64,000 bases of DNA from a virus (IMGVR_UViG_3300020578_000011), one strand, 5' to 3'; positions 1-56,870 are shown, counted from the first letter of the stretch. A program made the numbers and translations. The notes: generated from the letters alone by a model not told the origin.

Positions 1-1746
1 GTAGGCCCTCAAGGTCCTCAAGGTCCTCAAGGCCTTCAAGGCCCTCAAGGTACCCAAGGTGCCCAGGGTGCCAAGGGCGACCAAGGAGAAGTAGGTCCTC
101 AAGGTCCTCAAGGTCCTCAAGGTACTAAGGGAGATCAGGGCGACACAGGTCCTCAAGGTGCTCAAGGCGACACAGGCCCTCAAGGCCCTCAAGGTACCCA
201 GGGTGCCCAGGGCGATAAGGGCGACCAAGGAGAAGTAGGTCCTCAAGGTCCTCAAGGTCCTCAAGGTCCTCAAGGTCCTCAAGGTCCTCAAGGTCCTCAA
301 GGTCCTCAAGGCGCTCAAGGTGCCCAGGGTGCCAAGGGCGACCAAGGAGAAGTAGGTCCTCAAGGTCCTCAAGGTCCTCAAGGTACCCAGGGTGCCACTG
401 GTGATGCTGGCCCGCAAGGTCCGCAAGGTGTTACTGGTGCGCGAGCATACACTGTTACAGATGCGGGTGGAGTATTTGTAATTGATGGCACTAATAATCC
501 AGTCTTAAATTTGCTTCTGGGTTTCACTTATACTTTTAATATCACAGCTACGAATCATCCCTTCTATATTCAAACAAGCAGTGGATCTTTTAATTCAGGA
601 AATTTATATGACACCGGCGTAACAGGTAACGGCACACAGAACGGAACTCTTACCTTTGCAGTTCCGTATAATGCTCCTTCCACGCTCTATTATACTTGCG
701 GCATTCATAGTGGAATGGGGAATACAATTAATATAACCAGTGTGGGTCCTCAAGGCGACACAGGTCCTTCTGGGTTGGGCGGAGAAGAATTAGGAAGTCC
801 GGTTGGGTTTTTTAAAGCAAGTGACACATCGATATCTATAGATGAATCTTCAAGAATTTTTACAATAACACCAAATTTTTCATCATATGTATTTTATTCA
901 GCTGGTAAAAAGTTTGAAAAAACAACATCACTTTCAATATCATGGGCAAATAATCACGGTATTCACTTTTTTTATTTTGATGATAATGGAATTCTTTCTA
1001 CAACTGAAACGTTTGTAGAAGAATTAATAACAAAATATACTTTTATATCAATATTATATTGGGATTCTACGGCTCAAAAAGCAATATATTTTGGAGATGA
1101 AAGACATGGGATAAATATGGGAACAAGTACTCATATGTATCTCCACACGACACGAGGTGCTCAGTTTGATAAAGGTTTAAAACTTGTAAACTTTGTAGTA
1201 GATGGAGATGGTTCGCTAAGTTCGCATGCTCAATTCTCAGCTCAATCTGGAGTTATTTGGGATGAAGATATAAAAATAAATATTCCAGCACAATCTGTTT
1301 TTCCAGTTTTTTATAGATCTGGTTTGGTCTGGAAATCAAAAAATCCAGATTCTTTTCCATTGATATATTCAGGTCAAGAAGGATATTCTGGATTAACAAT
1401 TGCTTACAACATGCAGAGCGAGGGATCCTGGTCTCTTCAGCCGGTTGATTCAAACAAATTTGCACTGGTTCATGTATTTGCAACAAACAACATACAGTAT
1501 CCATTTGTTGCAATTTTAGGGATAAGTCAATACGCAAACAAAACCGCTGCAAGACAAGGTATTAAAATAGAAACTCAACAATTGGGTGGATTGCCTTTTT
1601 CTGAATTTGCGCCTGTTGGATCTATTATATTTGAAACTAGAAATGGTTTTACTAATATACCAAAGGCAGCTATAGTCTCAACAGATCTTGGCATGAATTA
1701 TCAAGATGAAAGAGGCGAGTCTTTTAGACCAGGTACTTTAGATTAA
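1..1746 (+). CDS. Collagen-like virion fibre protein with a cupredoxin-like domain (5' end outside window)
   Basis: Frame 1 is open from base 1 ([10 protein letters not shown]..., G-X-Y repeats to ~435) and continuous with ORF 511..1746. Contains HPFYIQ...[12 protein letters not shown]. Confidence 0.85.
238..309 (+). repeat. Tandem 9-mer GGTCCTCAA x8 (GPQ collagen repeat)
   Basis: Eight perfect copies read directly; degenerate copies span 1-430. Confidence 0.95.
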
Positions 1747-4258: not shown

Positions 4259-4594
4259 TTAGGGTTTGAGAGCATCGAACAAAACCTTAGCATACGGAGA
4301 CATTTCTTCTTTTTCATATGAAGCCTCATAGGCTTTGTAAAACTCTTTATCTAAAGCTTCTTTCTCGTCTTCATCTTCATCGTGATAAGTTCCGTCTTGA
4401 TGTTCAAAGATGCGGAAATCTCCTATTTCATAATCAAGCCATTCATTAAATCCTTGATTATATGCAACTTTATCTAATTCTTTTAAGGCATATGAGGTAG
4501 AGAAAGAATAAGTTGCCACCTTTACTTGCTCGGGATACACTTCATCAAGAAATTCGTCATACATCTTTTCAAGATCTTGCATATCTAGTTCCAT
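4259..4594 (-). CDS. Highly acidic hypothetical protein
   Basis: GAGGAGG RBS; D/E- and aromatic-rich; own TCCGATTC motif upstream. Confidence 0.8.
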   Translation of the reverse strand: MELDMQDLEKMYDEFLDEVYPEQVKVATYSFSTSYALKELDKVAYNQGFNEWLDYEIGDFRIFEHQDGTYHDEDEDEKEALDKEFYKAYEASYEKEEMSPYAKVLFDALKP

Positions 4595-4638: not shown

Positions 4639-4884
4639 TTAGTCTTCAATAAAACCAATATATACATCTATTTGATATCCGTATGCCCAGCATTGATTAT
4701 CTAGAGTAAAGATAGCATCTTTTTTATCAACAATAGAAATAGTATCAACAGGTTGACGTTGACCATGTCTCAAACCTAACCCTATGTTTTTTTCAATAGA
4801 TACTATTTTTGCCTTTTCTGGCGGCAAGCTTCCCCAACAACCGCTCCACAGTACGTCATCTCCAATGCTTAAAAAAGCTGTCAT
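4639..4884 (-). CDS. Hypothetical protein
   Basis: GAGG RBS; ORF track. Confidence 0.7.
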   Translation of the reverse strand: MTAFLSIGDDVLWSGCWGSLPPEKAKIVSIEKNIGLGLRHGQRQPVDTISIVDKKDAIFTLDNQCWAYGYQIDVYIGFIED

Positions 4885-54015: not shown

Positions 54016-55419
54016 ATGAGAATAGAAATCCTTAATCATGTAATAAGGATAGACGATCCAGATAAAGAAATAGAATCGGATTTAATTAAAAAATTAACCT
54101 ATACAGATAAGTCAAAACAATATCAAATAAAAAAAATGCAAAAAAATCCATTTTCAATAAAATCTAAACTTTATCAAAAGTTAATAAATGAAGTTAATGG
54201 ATCTTTAATTGAAAAAGTTGATAATACTATTTTTGTCCCATCTGGTTTTGCTAAATATGTTATTGACTTAGTATCTAAAATTAAATCTGTTGAAATTATT
54301 GATTCAAGATACGAAACAGGTTCAAACATTGCCCTACCGTGGGCAAGTGGTTCTTATTTACTTGAATTGAGAGATTATCAAAAAGAAGCCATCGACATAG
54401 CAGTATCAAATTGGCGAGGCATAATAAACTTTGCAACAGGTCTTGGAAAAACTAAAACAGCAATATCTTTAATACGAACACTAAAAAAAAAGACACTTAT
54501 AATATGTCCATCAAACTCTGTTGCAAATCAATTTAAAGACGAATTAATTCTTGCATTTGGTCAGAATAGAATTGGTTTTATAGGCGATAGTAAATTTAAA
54601 CCTTCAGATATAACCGTATGTATAGCTGCATCTGCTAATAATCACATAGATAAAATAAAGAAATTTGATTTAGGTTTAGTTATATTTGACGAATGTCATC
54701 ATTGTCCTGCCAATACCTTTTATTCTATATCACAGGGATTGTCGCATGTTGGACGTATGTACGGATTAACTGCCACTTCTTTTAGATCTGATGGTAAAGA
54801 TGTCATGATAACAGCAGATTGTGGAGACATATTGGTTAAAAGAGATGCAGCATGGGGAATTGCAAATAACTGGTTAGCTCAACCATATTTTATAGTTAGA
54901 AAAGTAAATACAACAGGTTTTGATTTTAAAGATGACAAATTAAAATCATATAAAAATCATGTTTTAAATTCAAAAGAAATGACATCAAGAATAGAATCAG
55001 ATGCTAAAAACTTTATACAAGCAAACAAATCAGTACTTATATTAGTAGATGAGGTTGAGCATGGAGAATCTTTATCAAAAGCTCTAAAAATTCCTTTTGC
55101 TCAAGGTGAAGATAAACAATCAAATGAATATGTCGATCAATTAAACAAAGGTCTTATTCCTGGTCTTGTTGGAACAGATGGAAAAATATCAGAAGGAACA
55201 GATACTAGAAATGTAGATATTCTTATATTAGCTAATTTTAGTGCATCTAAAGGAGCCGTTTTACAAGCCGTAGGTAGAGGTCTGAGAAAAACAGATACAA
55301 AAAATCATGTTATAATTTTAGATTATATCCCAGCTGGATCTACTATGTTAAGTAGACATGCTAATCAACGTATTTCTTTTTATCAAGAAATTACGTCTAA
55401 TATAAAATTGGTAGAATAA
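54016..55419 (+). CDS. Superfamily 2 DNA helicase (UvsW-like)
   Basis: LRDYQ; ATGLGKT; DECHH; GLTAT; QAVGRGLR. Confidence 0.9.
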   Translation: MRIEILNHVIRIDDPDKEIESDLIKKLTYTDKSKQYQIKKMQKNPFSIKSKLYQKLINEVNGSLIEKVDNTIFVPSGFAKYVIDLVSKIKSVEIIDSRYETGSNIALPWASGSYLLELRDYQKEAIDIAVSNWRGIINFATGLGKTKTAISLIRTLKKKTLIICPSNSVANQFKDELILAFGQNRIGFIGDSKFKPSDITVCIAASANNHIDKIKKFDLGLVIFDECHHCPANTFYSISQGLSHVGRMYGLTATSFRSDGKDVMITADCGDILVKRDAAWGIANNWLAQPYFIVRKVNTTGFDFKDDKLKSYKNHVLNSKEMTSRIESDAKNFIQANKSVLILVDEVEHGESLSKALKIPFAQGEDKQSNEYVDQLNKGLIPGLVGTDGKISEGTDTRNVDILILANFSASKGAVLQAVGRGLRKTDTKNHVIILDYIPAGSTMLSRHANQRISFYQEITSNIKLVE

Positions 55420-55430
55420 CATTTATCAAG

Positions 55431-55680
55431 ATACATCCCTCTTGGTGGCTTCCGTCGTCTTGGAGCTAGAAAAAAATGTTAGAGACATGGGGCATCGGTG
55501 CTCCAATGAAAGCTGATAGGTTATGTGTGTTCTGGTCTTTTCATCGCAAGATCCGTTGGCTTGGATATGTTTTAGGACCTTGTTATGGGTTTGGTCAGGC
55601 TTAAAAGCGGACCTCAGACGCAGCAACCGAGCACAAATAGAAAAGACGTGCACACAAGGGTAAGTGTATAAAATGCCCAT
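55431..55680 (+). ncRNA. Candidate structured non-coding RNA
   Basis: 46% GC by hand count (55441-55680) in an AT-rich context; 5'/3' ends complementary; internal stems and a possible pseudoknot. Confidence 0.5.
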
Positions 55681-55703
55681 TATATTTACTTAGGAGATTT
55701 TAA

Positions 55704-56132
55704 ATGAATCCAGAAAACAAATGTGCTAAACTTTGGAATCAAGAAGTCCCTAAATTAGAACACGATCAACAATCTTTAAATAAGATTTTTGAAATGCAAA
55801 AATCTCTACAACTTCGTCTTGGTCAAGATTTTTCTAAAATGACTCTTCATGAAAAAGTATCTTTAATAAAGGACAATTGGACTTCTTTAACATCAGAATA
55901 TGTTGAATTATTAGAACGTCTTCCATGGAAAGCATGGAAAAAATACTCTGATGAACAAAAAACAGATTGGATTTCCGAAGAACAAAAATTAGAAACATAT
56001 TATGAAGTATGCGATATGATGCATTTTATGATAAATATTTGTTTATTAGTAGGCGTAGATGCAGATACAATGTGGAAGCTTTACTATACAAAGAATGCAG
56101 AAAATTTTGCTAGACAAGACAGAGGTTATTAA
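55704..56132 (+). CDS. Dimeric dUTPase/dCTPase (all-alpha NTP pyrophosphatase)
   Basis: EYVELLERLPWKAWK; EVCDMMHF; KNAENFARQDRGY. Confidence 0.85.
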   Translation: MNPENKCAKLWNQEVPKLEHDQQSLNKIFEMQKSLQLRLGQDFSKMTLHEKVSLIKDNWTSLTSEYVELLERLPWKAWKKYSDEQKTDWISEEQKLETYYEVCDMMHFMINICLLVGVDADTMWKLYYTKNAENFARQDRGY

Positions 56133-56156: not shown

Positions 56157-56870
56157 ATGTCTTGTCTTTTTAATTCATCAATTAAAATATTTAACACAGA
56201 TCCTATGGACAATTCTTCTATATGGCCTCATTCAGTTGAAATCTGCATAACTAGAGTACCTATAAGAAAAAGAGATGGGTATTCAGTAGATTTTATGAAA
56301 AATTTAGCCAATAAATTAAAAAATTCTATGGCACCAAATGGAATAGTTTTTCTTATATGCTACGCTCCGATGGAATGTAAATTTAGACCTTTTGAAATTG
56401 GAAGCGAAATGGCAAAAGTTGGTTTTAATCATATTGATAATATTGTTATAGAAAAAACTTGGTTACCTGGAAAAAGATCAGAAAATAATTTAGTAAATTC
56501 TCATGATTATGTTTTGTTTTTTTGTAATGGTGATGTTTGGAAGATAGACAGATCTCCAATAAAACAATATTTAATGCTAGATGACTCAACTTCCTGTGTT
56601 GGGAATACGTGGCTGGTCGAAACAGGATCTTTAGATGAAAGTTGCTCAGATGATCTCGCTACTTTGCTAATTAGAATGTCAGATCTTCTTCCAGGCAGTT
56701 CTGTTTTTGATCCATTTATGGGCAATTCTGCAATATTAAAAGCCTGTCTTACAATGGGTCATTCTTTAATTGGATTTGAAACTGATAAAAGAAAAACAAA
56801 ACAATATCAAAAAATAGTTGATGATTTTAAGAGAAAGGAACAAGATGCTATACGTGAAGTCCAAGACTAA
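56157..56870 (+). CDS. Beta-class N4/N6 DNA methyltransferase-like protein, catalytic motif degenerate
   Basis: PGSSVFDPFMGNS...IGFE; TRVPI where (D/S/N)PP(Y/F) is expected. Confidence 0.7.
   Translation: MSCLFNSSIKIFNTDPMDNSSIWPHSVEICITRVPIRKRDGYSVDFMKNLANKLKNSMAPNGIVFLICYAPMECKFRPFEIGSEMAKVGFNHIDNIVIEKTWLPGKRSENNLVNSHDYVLFFCNGDVWKIDRSPIKQYLMLDDSTSCVGNTWLVETGSLDESCSDDLATLLIRMSDLLPGSSVFDPFMGNSAILKACLTMGHSLIGFETDKRKTKQYQKIVDDFKRKEQDAIREVQD

What the first reader, a model, noticed from the sequence alone, without database searches (positions are those of the whole stretch)
55431..55680. Candidate novel ~250-nt structured RNA between the helicase and dUTPase genes
Seen: a long gap in an otherwise tightly packed stretch, 110/240 GC. 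Closing helix: ATACA 55431-35 with TGTAT 55665-69, CCCtCTTG with CAAGGG 55655-60, GTG with CAC, CGTCTT 55456-61 with AAGACG 55643-48. Internal stems: TTGGAGC 55460-66 with GCTCCAA 55500-06, ATGAAAG with TTTTCAT, ATC-GCAA-GAT, GGTC..GCT-TAAA-AGC..GACC. Loop GGGCAT 55490-95 can pair with ATGCCC 55673-78 beyond the closing helix (pseudoknot). GTGCTC/GAGCAC offers an alternative fold. I see no tRNA, tmRNA, RNase P or group I core motifs. Inference: a phage ncRNA, ribozyme or regulatory leader of the nucleotide-metabolism gene.
Basis: partly seen in the sequence, partly recalled or inferred. Interest (0 to 1): 0.7.

Follow-up and report, generated by a model that had tools for sequence, protein, structure and literature searches.

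The report
Phage structured RNA ending in widespread pseudoknot
The 284-base gap between a lake phage's helicase and dUTPase genes holds a conserved, folded non-coding RNA, and its last 28 bases are one copy of a small pseudoknot found in many unrelated phages, usually just before tRNA genes or gene starts, that matches no catalogued RNA family.

Summary
The gap is real: window 55420-55703, non-coding, 42.6% GC against 34% for the window. It is conserved in seven sequence variants from three lineages of freshwater-phage contigs, always between the helicase stop and the dUTPase start.

Its closing helix, its TTGGAGC/GCTCCAA stem and its long-range pseudoknot are not kept in homologues. A different plus-strand structure is supported:
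- The alignment folds far better than column-shuffled controls (z -6.7, 0 of 200 shuffles as good).
- Compensatory changes occur in five helices.
- No ORF is conserved on either strand.

The element has two parts.
- **5' domain (about 215 nt).** Several hairpins plus a four-way junction. It was found only in this clade.
- **3' pseudoknot module (55652-55679).** An H-type pseudoknot: 4-bp S1, 2-nt L1, 5-bp S2, A-rich L3 (AUAAAA). It occurs in at least 74 IMG/VR contigs, in cultured Lentibacter (ICBM1, ICBM2), Celeribacter and Vibrio phages, and in a few bacterial MAGs. Covariation in both stems is strong. It lies 3-10 nt before tRNAs or shortly before gene starts. Nothing in Rfam 15 matched it.

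Related phages have nothing, or unrelated ORFs, at this position, so the element is accessory cargo. Its function is untested. My best guess is an accessory ncRNA bounded by a portable RNA-end or boundary module. This scan had flagged the same stretch before as "6S-like"; that reading is not supported.

The parts
54016..55419 (+). Upstream gene: SF2 helicase (ResIII/DEAD). Its stop codon ends at 55419.
55425..55446 (+). H1: 7-bp hairpin (AUCAAGA/UCUUGGU) starting 6 nt after the helicase stop codon.
   Evidence: Alignment A7: 98% of cells paired and 3 pairs changed on both sides; 1 of 500 shuffles reaches this.
55457..55486 (+). Pa: hairpin with an internal loop (55457-66 pairs with 55478-86). 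CUAGA and UGUUA in the loop are invariant.
   Evidence: All cells paired, 2 pairs changed on both sides, 3 changed on one side.
55488..55505 (+). Pb: short hairpin, UGGG with CCCA in most variants (UCCA in the window).
   Evidence: Pairing kept in all 7 variants, but almost invariant, so untested by covariation.
55535..55647 (+). Multi-branch domain. It is closed by Pc (GUCUUUUC 55535-42 with GAAAAGAC 55640-47, both strands invariant). Pc encloses Pd (55551-55/55562-66), Pe (55577-80/55587-91), Pf (55594-601/55606-12) and a variable linker of about 27 nt.
   Evidence: Pd has 3 of 5 pairs changed on both sides, with an invariant G.U pair and a UUGGNU loop. Pf has 2 covarying pairs. Pc has no variation, so its pairing is inferred only. 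The 5' domain alone gives z -6.0 on the plus strand and -4.1 on the minus strand.
55652..55679 (+). Portable H-type pseudoknot module: S1 ACAC 55652-55 with GUGU 55664-67; L1 AA 55656-57; S2 GGGUA 55658-62 with UGCCC 55674-78; L2 A 55663; L3 AUAAAA 55668-73; then a conserved A at 55679.
   Evidence: S2 covaries within the clade: L321 has G->A with C->U, and other variants show G.U, A-U or G-C. The family-wide pattern scan left S1 unconstrained, and S1 covaries in it: ACAC/GUGU, AGUC/GACU, CAAC/GUUG, CCAC/GUGG, GCAC/GUGC, CGAC/GUCG, AGAC/GUCU, AGAU/AUCU. It is the only hit of a structural descriptor on both strands of the 64-kb window.
55680..55703 (+). U-rich spacer and Shine-Dalgarno sequence (AGGAG 55692-55696) of the dUTPase gene.
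   Evidence: Sequence; conserved in all variants.
55704..56132 (+). Downstream gene: dUTPase_2 / dCTPase-like all-alpha NTP pyrophosphatase, followed by an N6/N4 methyltransferase and a Cpn60-like chaperonin.

Best explanation
The gap encodes a plus-strand structured non-coding RNA made of two modules.
- **Module 1** is a clade-specific domain of about 215 nt: a post-stop hairpin H1, hairpins Pa and Pb, and a junction closed by Pc that carries Pd, Pe and Pf.
- **Module 2** is a 28-nt H-type pseudoknot belonging to a large, uncatalogued family of phage RNA elements.

**Shown**
- The region is non-coding and conserved in three lineages.
- It has a covariation-supported consensus structure that is stronger on the plus strand.
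- It occupies a variable accessory slot.
- The pseudoknot is a portable unit with strong covariation in both stems.

**Inferred**
- The element is transcribed as part of the helicase-to-dUTPase message, because relatives without it have only an 11-nt junction and no promoter or terminator is evident.
- The compact pseudoknot, with its A-rich L3, acts as a gene-independent boundary device. It could be a nuclease-resistant or processing cap, or a signal read by the transcribing polymerase. It would mark the 3' end of the upstream RNA and the start of the next unit.
- The 215-nt domain is accessory cargo: a stable RNA that works by binding a partner through its invariant loops (CUAGA, UGUUA, UUGGNU, AUGUUU, CCUUGUU).

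I put about 0.75 on 'real plus-strand structured RNA in two modules' and about 0.35 on the boundary-plus-cargo mechanism specifically.
For: **Non-coding**
- There are stops and frameshifts in every frame of the homologues.

**Homologues**
- Seven variants sit at the same position: window, L001, L084/86/85/87, L321, L322, L323 and L324/325.
- The three deep lineages are 59-68% identical to each other.

**Consensus structure**
- RNAalifold predicts 48 pairs, 97.9% of cells paired, and 9 pairs with double changes.
- Consensus energy is -44.9 against -20.2 +/- 3.7 kcal/mol for column-shuffled alignments. That is z -6.7, with 0 of 200 shuffles as good; at least 9 compensatory pairs arise in 4 of 200 shuffles.
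- The 5' domain alone gives z -6.0.

**Strand**
- Consensus energy is -44.9 on the plus strand and -31.8 on the minus strand. Several invariant G.U pairs exist.
- In other phages the pseudoknot always lies on the same strand as the adjacent tRNA.

**Accessory slot**
- Relatives have an 11-nt spacer (L075-78), one or two 100-aa ORFs (L091-94), or a 189-aa ORF with an HNH-like motif (by eye) plus a 71-aa ORF (L074). None resembles the gap.

**Pseudoknot family**
- 14 and 74 IMG/VR loci matched two patterns.
- S1 covaries in a scan that left it free.
- Central S1 pairs are C-G 34 / G-C 24 / A-U 2 and A-U 39 / U-A 21, with none unpaired.
- S2 variants within a single genome are UGAGC/GCUCA, UAAGC/GCUUA and UGAAC/GUUCA.

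**Context of 47 unique copies**
- 16 have a tRNA starting 3-10 nt downstream, 21 have an ORF start within 90 nt, and many lie 3-22 nt after an upstream stop codon.

**Cultured examples**
- Lentibacter phages ICBM1 and ICBM2 carry it between the RNR and glutaredoxin genes.
- Celeribacter phage P12053L and Vibrio phage CHOED carry it in stretches with no annotated feature.
Against: - There is no expression evidence. No RNA run is listed for this DNA.
- The sample is only seven variants in three lineages.
- Pb, Pc and the long-range pairs never vary, so their pairing is untested.
- RNAalifold chose the structure on the same alignment on which the pairs were counted.
- Overall identity between lineages (59-68%) is not much above third-codon-position identity in the flanking genes (48-65%). 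Constraint is therefore confined to blocks.
- The single-sequence fold is not better than shuffles.
- The minus strand also scores well (z -5.5 for the whole element).
- The boundary or cap function is an inference from position alone.
- Some copies sit in 5' leaders with no co-directional upstream gene (L415, L417), or downstream of a canonical promoter (L353). Those fit a leader or co-transcriptional role better than 3'-end protection.
Confidence: 0.55

Rival explanations
1. The whole element is a cis-regulatory 5' leader (a riboswitch or protein-binding attenuator) controlling the dUTPase, methyltransferase and chaperonin genes. The pseudoknot and the U-rich tract would act as the expression platform.
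For: - It abuts the Shine-Dalgarno sequence. The spacer is conserved, and the tract after the pseudoknot is U-rich in the window clade.
- Complex junctions with invariant unpaired bases resemble aptamers.
- The pseudoknot topology (short L1, A-rich L3) resembles the preQ1-I aptamer; that comparison is from my own knowledge.
- A 4-bp UUCC/GGAG pairing with the Shine-Dalgarno sequence is predicted.
Against: - Relatives express the same genes from an 11-nt helicase-dUTPase junction with no leader.
- The same pseudoknot precedes tRNAs (Ile, Arg, Glu, Lys, Met) and unrelated ORFs, so it is gene-agnostic.
- No Rfam riboswitch matched even at E<=10.
- No promoter was found upstream of the element.
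- The terminator scan found nothing here.
Confidence: 0.2
2. The 3' module is a DNA-level promoter. TATAAA in the 'loop' would be the -10 element and the conserved CA the start site, with flanking inverted repeats acting as an operator. The rest of the gap would be upstream regulatory DNA or spacer.
For: - The module ends 3-10 nt before tRNA 5' ends and 10-60 nt before start codons, which is the geometry of a start site.
- It contains a TATAAA or TAAAAT hexamer followed by a GC-rich discriminator and CA.
- Weak -35-like hexamers (TAGACA, TGGACA, TTGACC) occur upstream in some copies.
Against: - Both stems covary, including wobble-type states (U.G, G.U) that break DNA symmetry.
- Three different stem versions coexist in one genome, which argues for base pairing rather than co-evolution with a protein.
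- Several copies read CUAAA(A/C), which puts C at the key -11 position (L339, L328:2207, L328:4115, L329:5995).
- The -35-like hexamers sit 19-20 bp away, too far for sigma-70 by my own count.
- In the tRNA-Ile group a canonical TTGACA-17-TATAAT lies about 70 nt upstream of the module (L353).
- There are only 1-4 copies per contig, and the sigma-70 scan gave no hit here.
Confidence: 0.1
3. The gap is a decaying remnant of a lost gene or tRNA cluster, or otherwise neutral spacer, and has no function of its own.
For: - The slot is variable, and its length (284 nt) is close to that of the 100-aa ORF found in relatives.
- Overall divergence is near the synonymous-site level.
- Raised GC content and the similarity of the 3' ~60 nt to a tRNA-array spacer in L065/L067 hint at tRNA-region ancestry.
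Against: - There is no similarity to the ORFs that relatives carry in this slot.
- No consistent tRNA-like calls appear, even at low ARAGORN thresholds.
- Invariant blocks and compensatory changes persist in lineages whose synonymous sites are near saturation.
Confidence: 0.07
4. It is a 6S-like rod RNA that decoys RNA polymerase. This is how another first-stage reader of this scan read the same stretch.
For: The size class of about 200-260 nt is similar, and phage takeover of polymerase is plausible in principle.
Against: - No match to any Rfam family, which includes 6S, even at E<=10.
- The consensus structure is multi-branched with local hairpins. It is not a rod with a central bubble.
- The end-to-end closing helix is not conserved.
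Confidence: 0.03

Closest known systems
preQ1-I riboswitch aptamer and luteovirus-type (BWYV) frameshift pseudoknots: compact H-type pseudoknots with an A-rich loop lying in a stem groove (comparison from my own knowledge)
   Same: The strand order is the same (S1-S2-S1'-S2'). Total size is about 28-34 nt, L1 is 2-3 nt, the junction is 1-2 nt, and L3 is 6-7 nt and A-rich (AUAAAA). One stem is variable and covarying and the other is conserved.
   Different: No match to Rfam preQ1 or any other family. The base 5' of S1' is variable, where preQ1-I has an invariant ligand-pairing C. It is not placed after slippery sites, and its distance from upstream stop codons varies. Downstream genes are unrelated to queuosine, and a third of copies precede tRNAs.
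Theta (minimal HDV-like) ribozymes next to phage tRNAs (PMC10879173)
   Same: Both are small pseudoknotted RNAs enriched in phage genomes and placed within a few nucleotides of tRNA genes.
   Different: Theta ribozymes have their cleavage site within +/-5 nt of a tRNA and are proposed to process 3' trailers. This module lies 3-10 nt upstream of tRNA 5' ends. It has only two stems and lacks the P3/P1.1/P4 elements of the HDV fold. Self-cleavage was not tested.
Cis-acting phage leader RNAs that act on the transcribing polymerase (lambda nut boxB, HK022 put) (from my own knowledge)
   Same: There are few copies per genome, all in the direction of transcription. They lie in leaders or between genes of early or metabolic operons, have covarying stems and invariant loops, and are independent of the downstream gene's identity.
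   Different: There is no sequence or structural similarity to boxA/boxB or put, and no evidence of antitermination. The family spans phages of very different hosts and some bacterial MAGs.
PeSL 'promoter-early stem-loop' mobile regulatory cassettes of T4-type phages (from my own knowledge)
   Same: Both are short, highly conserved intergenic cassettes recurring between small ORFs in plastic regions. Three copies lie within 3.5 kb in the 135-kb phage G005.
   Different: PeSLs are a sigma-70 promoter followed by a hairpin. Here the A/T-rich hexamer lies inside a covarying pseudoknot, and several copies lack a usable -10 element.
Large orphan phage-associated ncRNAs (GOLLD, ROOL, HEARO) and 6S RNA
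   Same: Like these, the 215-nt domain is a multi-stem non-coding RNA carried as phage cargo with unknown function.
   Different: It matches none of them in Rfam 15. It is much smaller than GOLLD or ROOL, and it was found only in one clade of lake-phage contigs.

Membership tests
Any Rfam 15 family (4227 models) | Covariance-model match at the gathering score, or at least E<=10 | tested here: not met
   No hits in the window at gathering score. No hits in 55300-55800 at E<=10. Canonical copies of the pseudoknot in L337-L341 also gave no match at their positions.
tRNA / tmRNA / tRNA-like | Cloverleaf detected by ARAGORN or RF00005, consistent across homologues | tested here: not met
   None found at normal settings. 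At very low thresholds the calls differ between homologues, so they are noise.
6S RNA | Long rod with a central bubble, closed by pairing of the 5' and 3' ends; match to the 6S covariance model | tested here: not met
   The consensus is multi-branched. The end-to-end closing helix is not conserved. There is no Rfam match.
preQ1-I riboswitch | H-type pseudoknot with an A-rich L3 | tested here: met
   The S1/S2 topology with L3 AUAAAA is supported by covariation.
preQ1-I riboswitch | Invariant ligand-pairing C in L2, match to RF00522, queuosine-related downstream genes | tested here: not met
   The L2 position is variable (column 16 of A8). There is no Rfam match. Downstream are tRNAs, dUTPase, glutaredoxin and assorted ORFs.
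Group I intron | Match to RF00028; P3-P7 core; insertion within a gene's exons | tested here: not met
   There is no Rfam match at E<=10 and the element is intergenic. By eye, no P7-type partner exists for the CUAGA block. A full manual core search was not done.
Intrinsic terminator | GC-rich stem with a 3-8 nt loop, directly followed by a U run | tested here: not met
   The scan found no terminator in the gap. S2 has an 11-nt 'loop'. The tail is U-rich in some copies but absent before tRNAs.
Sigma-70 promoter | -35 and -10 hexamers at 16-18 bp spacing | tested here: not met
   There is no hit inside the gap. Several module variants have C at the -11 position.
HDV-like / theta ribozyme | Nested double pseudoknot with P1, P1.1, P2, P3 (and P4); cleavage at its own 5' end next to a tRNA 3' end | tested here: not met
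   Only two stems are present, with 1-2 nt where P3 would lie. The module is upstream of tRNA 5' ends. Catalysis was not testable.
Phage pseudoknot module defined here (N4-CU-GAGCA-N-N4'-AUAAAA-G-GCUC-A) | 4-bp S1 between the 5' flank and the 'loop'; 5-bp S2; L3 [A/C]UAAA[A/C]; same strand as flanking genes; intergenic | tested here: met
   The window copy at 55652-55679 pairs 4 of 4 in S1 and 5 of 5 in S2. It is the only descriptor hit in 64 kb on both strands. It lies on the gene strand, 24 nt before the dUTPase ATG.

The most novel reading that the evidence does not exclude
The 28-nt pseudoknot is a previously unrecognised, widely portable phage RNA device that works on a universal host machine. 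It might, for example, be a put-like signal that makes RNA polymerase resistant to termination or to Rho, or a mechanical stop for exonucleases that fixes RNA ends. Phages would place it in front of tRNAs and genes regardless of host. The 215-nt domain attached to it here would be a new class of phage cargo RNA: a protein sponge, anti-defence decoy or ribozyme.
Probability: 0.2. Interest if true: 0.85.

Novelty: new variant of a known kind. Interest (0 to 1): 0.62.

Why it matters
Structured RNAs of phages are poorly catalogued.

This finding yields a clade-specific multi-stem RNA. More importantly, it yields a tiny pseudoknot with very clear covariation that recurs across podoviruses, large phages, several cultured marine phages and some candidate-phyla bacterial bins, yet matches nothing in Rfam 15.

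Its fixed position just ahead of tRNAs and gene starts suggests a general, gene-independent way for phages to set RNA boundaries or to control transcription or decay. Cultured phages carry it (Lentibacter phages ICBM1 and ICBM2, Vibrio phage CHOED, Celeribacter phage P12053L), so the question can be tested directly at the bench.

Tried and rejected
- **Known RNA families.** Rfam at gathering score and at E<=10 gave nothing. ARAGORN at normal and relaxed settings gave nothing consistent.
- **Single-sequence folding.** It does not discriminate.
- **Cultured phages.** No DNA homologue of the whole gap was found. The helicase and dUTPase have only distant relatives, below 40% identity.
- **Decayed-gene hypothesis.** tblastn and blastn of the ORFs that relatives carry in this slot against the gap found nothing.
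- **Coding hypothesis.** Six-frame comparison shows no conserved ORF.
- **Repeated promoter hypothesis.** The 23-mer is single-copy in the window and in related contigs.
- **Promoter and terminator scan.** No sites in the gap.
- **Pattern scans for the 5' domain in IMG/VR.** Hits other than the known L001 contig (L055) did not extend on blastn re-check. The covariance model R1 finds the 5' domain nowhere else.
- **Metagenome scan with the 3' motif.** It found the known lineages plus two apparent chance hits in GC-rich DNA.
- **Sequencing runs.** No RNA holder is listed; only lake-water DNA runs hold the stretch.
- **Literature.** The cobavirus papers do not mention the motif. A text search for the loop sequence found only unrelated papers.
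- **BLAST of the tRNA-Ile-linked variant against cultured phages.** No match.
- **Group I intron, hammerhead and HDV-like readings.** I considered these by inspection and rejected them. There is no P7 partner, the CUGAUA block lacks the G of the hammerhead core, and there is no P3 or P1.1.
- **Replication origin or single-strand initiation signal.** I considered this because the primase and helicase genes are adjacent, but did not pursue it. The plus-strand-specific G.U pairs and the module's link to tRNAs and gene starts fit RNA better.

Full report
**What is there**

Window 55420-55703 is a 284-nt gap. It lies between an SF2 helicase (54016-55419, +; ResIII/DEAD) and a dUTPase_2-family gene (55704-56132, +). 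An N6/N4 methyltransferase and a Cpn60-like chaperonin follow. GC is 42.6% against 34.1% for the window. The DNA comes from a freshwater-lake phage with no close cultured relative.

Rfam finds nothing at gathering score, and nothing at E<=10. ARAGORN finds no tRNA or tmRNA. On its own the sequence does not fold better than shuffles: z is -1.17 on the plus strand and -0.71 on the minus strand.

**Homologues and the slot**

I followed the flanking proteins into IMG/VR and the large protein collection. This gave seven distinct variants of the gap: window; L001; L084 (=L086, ~L087, ~L085); L321; L322; L323; L324 (=L325). All lie between the helicase stop and the dUTPase start. They form three lineages that are 59-68% identical to each other.

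More distant relatives with the same gene order have something else at this position:
- an 11-nt spacer (L075-78);
- one or two 100-aa ORFs (L091-94);
- a 189-aa ORF with an HNH-like motif (judged by eye; no Pfam hit) plus a 71-aa ORF (L074).

None of these inserts resembles the gap. The position is therefore a cargo slot, and here the cargo is non-coding. No reading frame survives in the homologues, including the minus-strand 84-aa ORF.

**Structure**

RNAalifold on the seven variants gives 48 pairs, with 97.9% of cells paired and nine pairs carrying double changes. The elements, in window coordinates, are:
- Pa: 55457-66 with 55478-86.
- Pb: 55488-91 with 55502-05.
- Pc: a long-range 8-bp helix, GUCUUUUC 55535-42 with GAAAAGAC 55640-47. 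Both strands are invariant.
- Pd: 55551-55 with 55562-66. Three of five pairs covary, and the G.U pair and UUGGNU loop are invariant.
- Pe: 55577-80 with 55587-91.
- Pf: 55594-601 with 55606-12. Two pairs covary.
- A 3' hairpin: 55658-62 with 55674-78.
- H1: a 7-bp hairpin directly after the stop codon, 55425-31 with 55440-46. It covaries at three pairs.

Against alignments with shuffled columns, the consensus energy is -44.9 versus -20.2 +/- 3.7 kcal/mol. That is z -6.7, with 0 of 200 shuffles as good. At least nine compensatory pairs arise in only 4 of 200 shuffles. The 5' domain alone gives z -6.0.

The plus strand is favoured. Consensus energy is -44.9 against -31.8, and several G.U pairs are invariant. 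The minus strand also scores well (z -5.5), as partly symmetric helices must.

The caveats are these:
- There are only seven sequences in three lineages.
- The structure was chosen on the same alignment on which the pairs were counted.
- Pb, Pc and the predicted UUCC/GGAG pairing with the Shine-Dalgarno sequence never vary.
- Overall divergence is close to that of third codon positions in the flanking genes (48-65% identity). Constraint is therefore concentrated in blocks.

I tested its helices on the homologues. The closing helix, TTGGAGC/GCTCCAA and the long-range GGGCAT/ATGCCC pseudoknot are only partly kept and show no compensation. Only the GGTC..GCT-TAAA-AGC..GACC stem (Pf) holds.

**The 3' end is a portable pseudoknot**

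The last ~30 nt matched, at 29 of 32 positions, a spacer between tRNA-Lys and tRNA-Met in an unrelated phage lineage (L065, L067, L080, L081). Two broader pattern scans were then run:
- ACACNNGNGNNAGTGTATAAAANGC hit 14 IMG/VR contigs and no prokaryote genome.
- CTGAGCANNNNNATAAAAGGCTCA leaves the 5' flank and five 'loop' bases free. It hit 74 IMG/VR loci and 10 prokaryote contigs. By my count eight of those ten show the S1 pairing, and all eight are MAGs: Nomurabacteria, Saccharibacteria, Magasanikbacteria, Cloacimonadota, Geopsychrobacter and Bacillota.

In that unconstrained scan, the four bases before CU are complementary to four bases in the 'loop'. They covary freely: ACAC/GUGU, AGUC/GACU, CAAC/GUUG, CCAC/GUGG, GCAC/GUGC, CGAC/GUCG, AGAC/GUCU, AGAU/AUCU, CGUC/GACG.

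On a 60-sequence alignment the two central S1 pairs are C-G 34 / G-C 24 / A-U 2 and A-U 39 / U-A 21, with none unpaired. That alignment was filtered for at least 3 of 4 S1 pairs, so one search is the unbiased evidence.

The second stem covaries too:
- GGG/CCC against GAG/CUC between lineages.
- UGAGC/GCUCA, UAAGC/GCUUA and UGAAC/GUUCA within a single 135-kb genome.

The two stems interleave, so the module is an H-type pseudoknot. Its order is S1 (4 bp), L1 (CU; AA in the window), S2 (5 bp), a 1-2 nt junction, S1', L3 (AUAAAA), then S2' followed by A. The window copy is at 55652-55679. It is the only hit of a structural descriptor in the whole window, on both strands.

**Where the module sits**

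Of 47 unique copies with enough flanking DNA:
- 16 have a same-strand tRNA starting 3-10 nt downstream;
- 21 have an ORF start within 90 nt;
- many lie 3-22 nt after an upstream stop codon.

Other observations on placement:
- Contigs carry one to four copies, all in the same direction, sometimes among small ORFs.
- In one group a canonical TTGACA-17-TATAAT promoter lies about 70 nt upstream, so the module is inside a tRNA leader (L353).
- In two Bacillota MAGs it lies in a divergent intergenic region.
- Cultured examples are Lentibacter phages ICBM1 and ICBM2 (between the RNR and glutaredoxin genes), Celeribacter phage P12053L and Vibrio phage CHOED.
- The cobavirus papers I checked do not mention it.
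- Rfam has no matching family, even for canonical copies.
- The 5' 215-nt domain occurs nowhere else.

**Interpretation**

*Shown.* The gap holds a conserved, plus-strand, two-module structured RNA in an accessory slot. Its 3' module belongs to a widespread pseudoknot family enriched in phage contigs.

*Inferred.*
- It is transcribed within the helicase-to-dUTPase message.
- The pseudoknot is a gene-independent boundary device, acting either as an end-protecting or processing cap or as a signal read by the transcribing polymerase.
- The 215-nt domain is a cargo RNA that acts through its invariant loops.

*The promoter reading of the module.* It is attractive because of the module's position and its TATAAA hexamer. 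It is disfavoured for three reasons:
- Both stems covary, with wobble states, and the stems differ between copies within one genome.
- Some copies have C at the -11 position.
- One group has an independent promoter upstream.

*Other readings.*
- A dedicated dUTPase leader is disfavoured because relatives need none and because the module is gene-agnostic.
- The 6S-like rod reading, made earlier in this scan for the same stretch, does not fit the consensus structure.

**Comparison with known systems**

- **Topology.** The module resembles the preQ1-I aptamer and the compact luteoviral frameshift pseudoknots. It lacks their defining sequence features and contexts.
- **Context.** It recalls the theta ribozymes found next to phage tRNAs (PMC10879173). 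It sits on the other side of the tRNA and lacks the HDV fold.
- **Logic.** It recalls nut and put leader RNAs and PeSL cassettes. These comparisons are from my own knowledge.

It is a member of none of these.

**Verdict**

This is a real feature. The most valuable result is the portable pseudoknot. Function remains untested, and cultured phages now exist in which to test it.

Noticed in passing
L001:1555-4008 (+); also L009: The helicase orthologue in L001 carries an in-frame insertion of about 350 aa at residue ~132. The insertion has Hint and LAGLIDADG homing-endonuclease domains, so it is an intein. The window's helicase lacks it. L009 shows the same split in the helicase match.
   Followed up: partly
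L074:2210-2991; L092:2137-2439; L094:1810-2477: The helicase-dUTPase slot holds other cargo in relatives. One variant is a 189-aa ORF with an HNH-like motif (judged by eye; no Pfam hit) plus a 71-aa ORF. Another is one or two 100-aa ORFs with no Pfam family. This phage family also spans about 34% to 53% GC.
   Followed up: partly
L067:2750-3080 compared with L065:13370-13444: In L067 an ORF with an HNH-endonuclease-like motif, followed by about 90 nt of unrelated sequence, replaces the 5' half of the tRNA-Lys that is intact in L065. The two sequences are identical from the variable-loop/T-arm region onward. This could be a homing-endonuclease insertion or an intron in a phage tRNA.
   Followed up: no
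L340:1806-1879 (Vibrio phage CHOED, KJ192399.2, about 56641-56714): Rfam finds a strong tRNA (60.9 bits) that is not among the features annotated in the record for this stretch.
   Followed up: no
L348:3780-3863 and 4460-4541; L374 upstream of 1275: In these contigs the pseudoknot module is preceded by long G-rich tandem repeats of the GGCAUGGCAGGC type. Their meaning is unknown.
   Followed up: no
L337:1320-1371 and 4745-4794; L327/L371/L336 upstream of the module: Several copies of the module directly follow a strong 8-9 bp hairpin, or a two-hairpin region of about 85 nt, just before a tRNA-Arg. 'Structured RNA plus pseudoknot' may therefore be a recurring arrangement, not only the window's.
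   Followed up: partly
L410:2219-3168 (Candidatus Nomurabacteria MAG, 278-kb contig); L411, L416, L418: The pseudoknot module also occurs in candidate-phyla-radiation bacterial bins, with two copies about 900 nt apart in one of them. I did not check whether these are prophages, mis-binned phage contigs or cellular loci.
   Followed up: no
window 1-510: This stretch is unusually GC-rich (57% against 34% for the window). It lies inside a 5'-open plus-strand ORF (1-1746).
   Followed up: no
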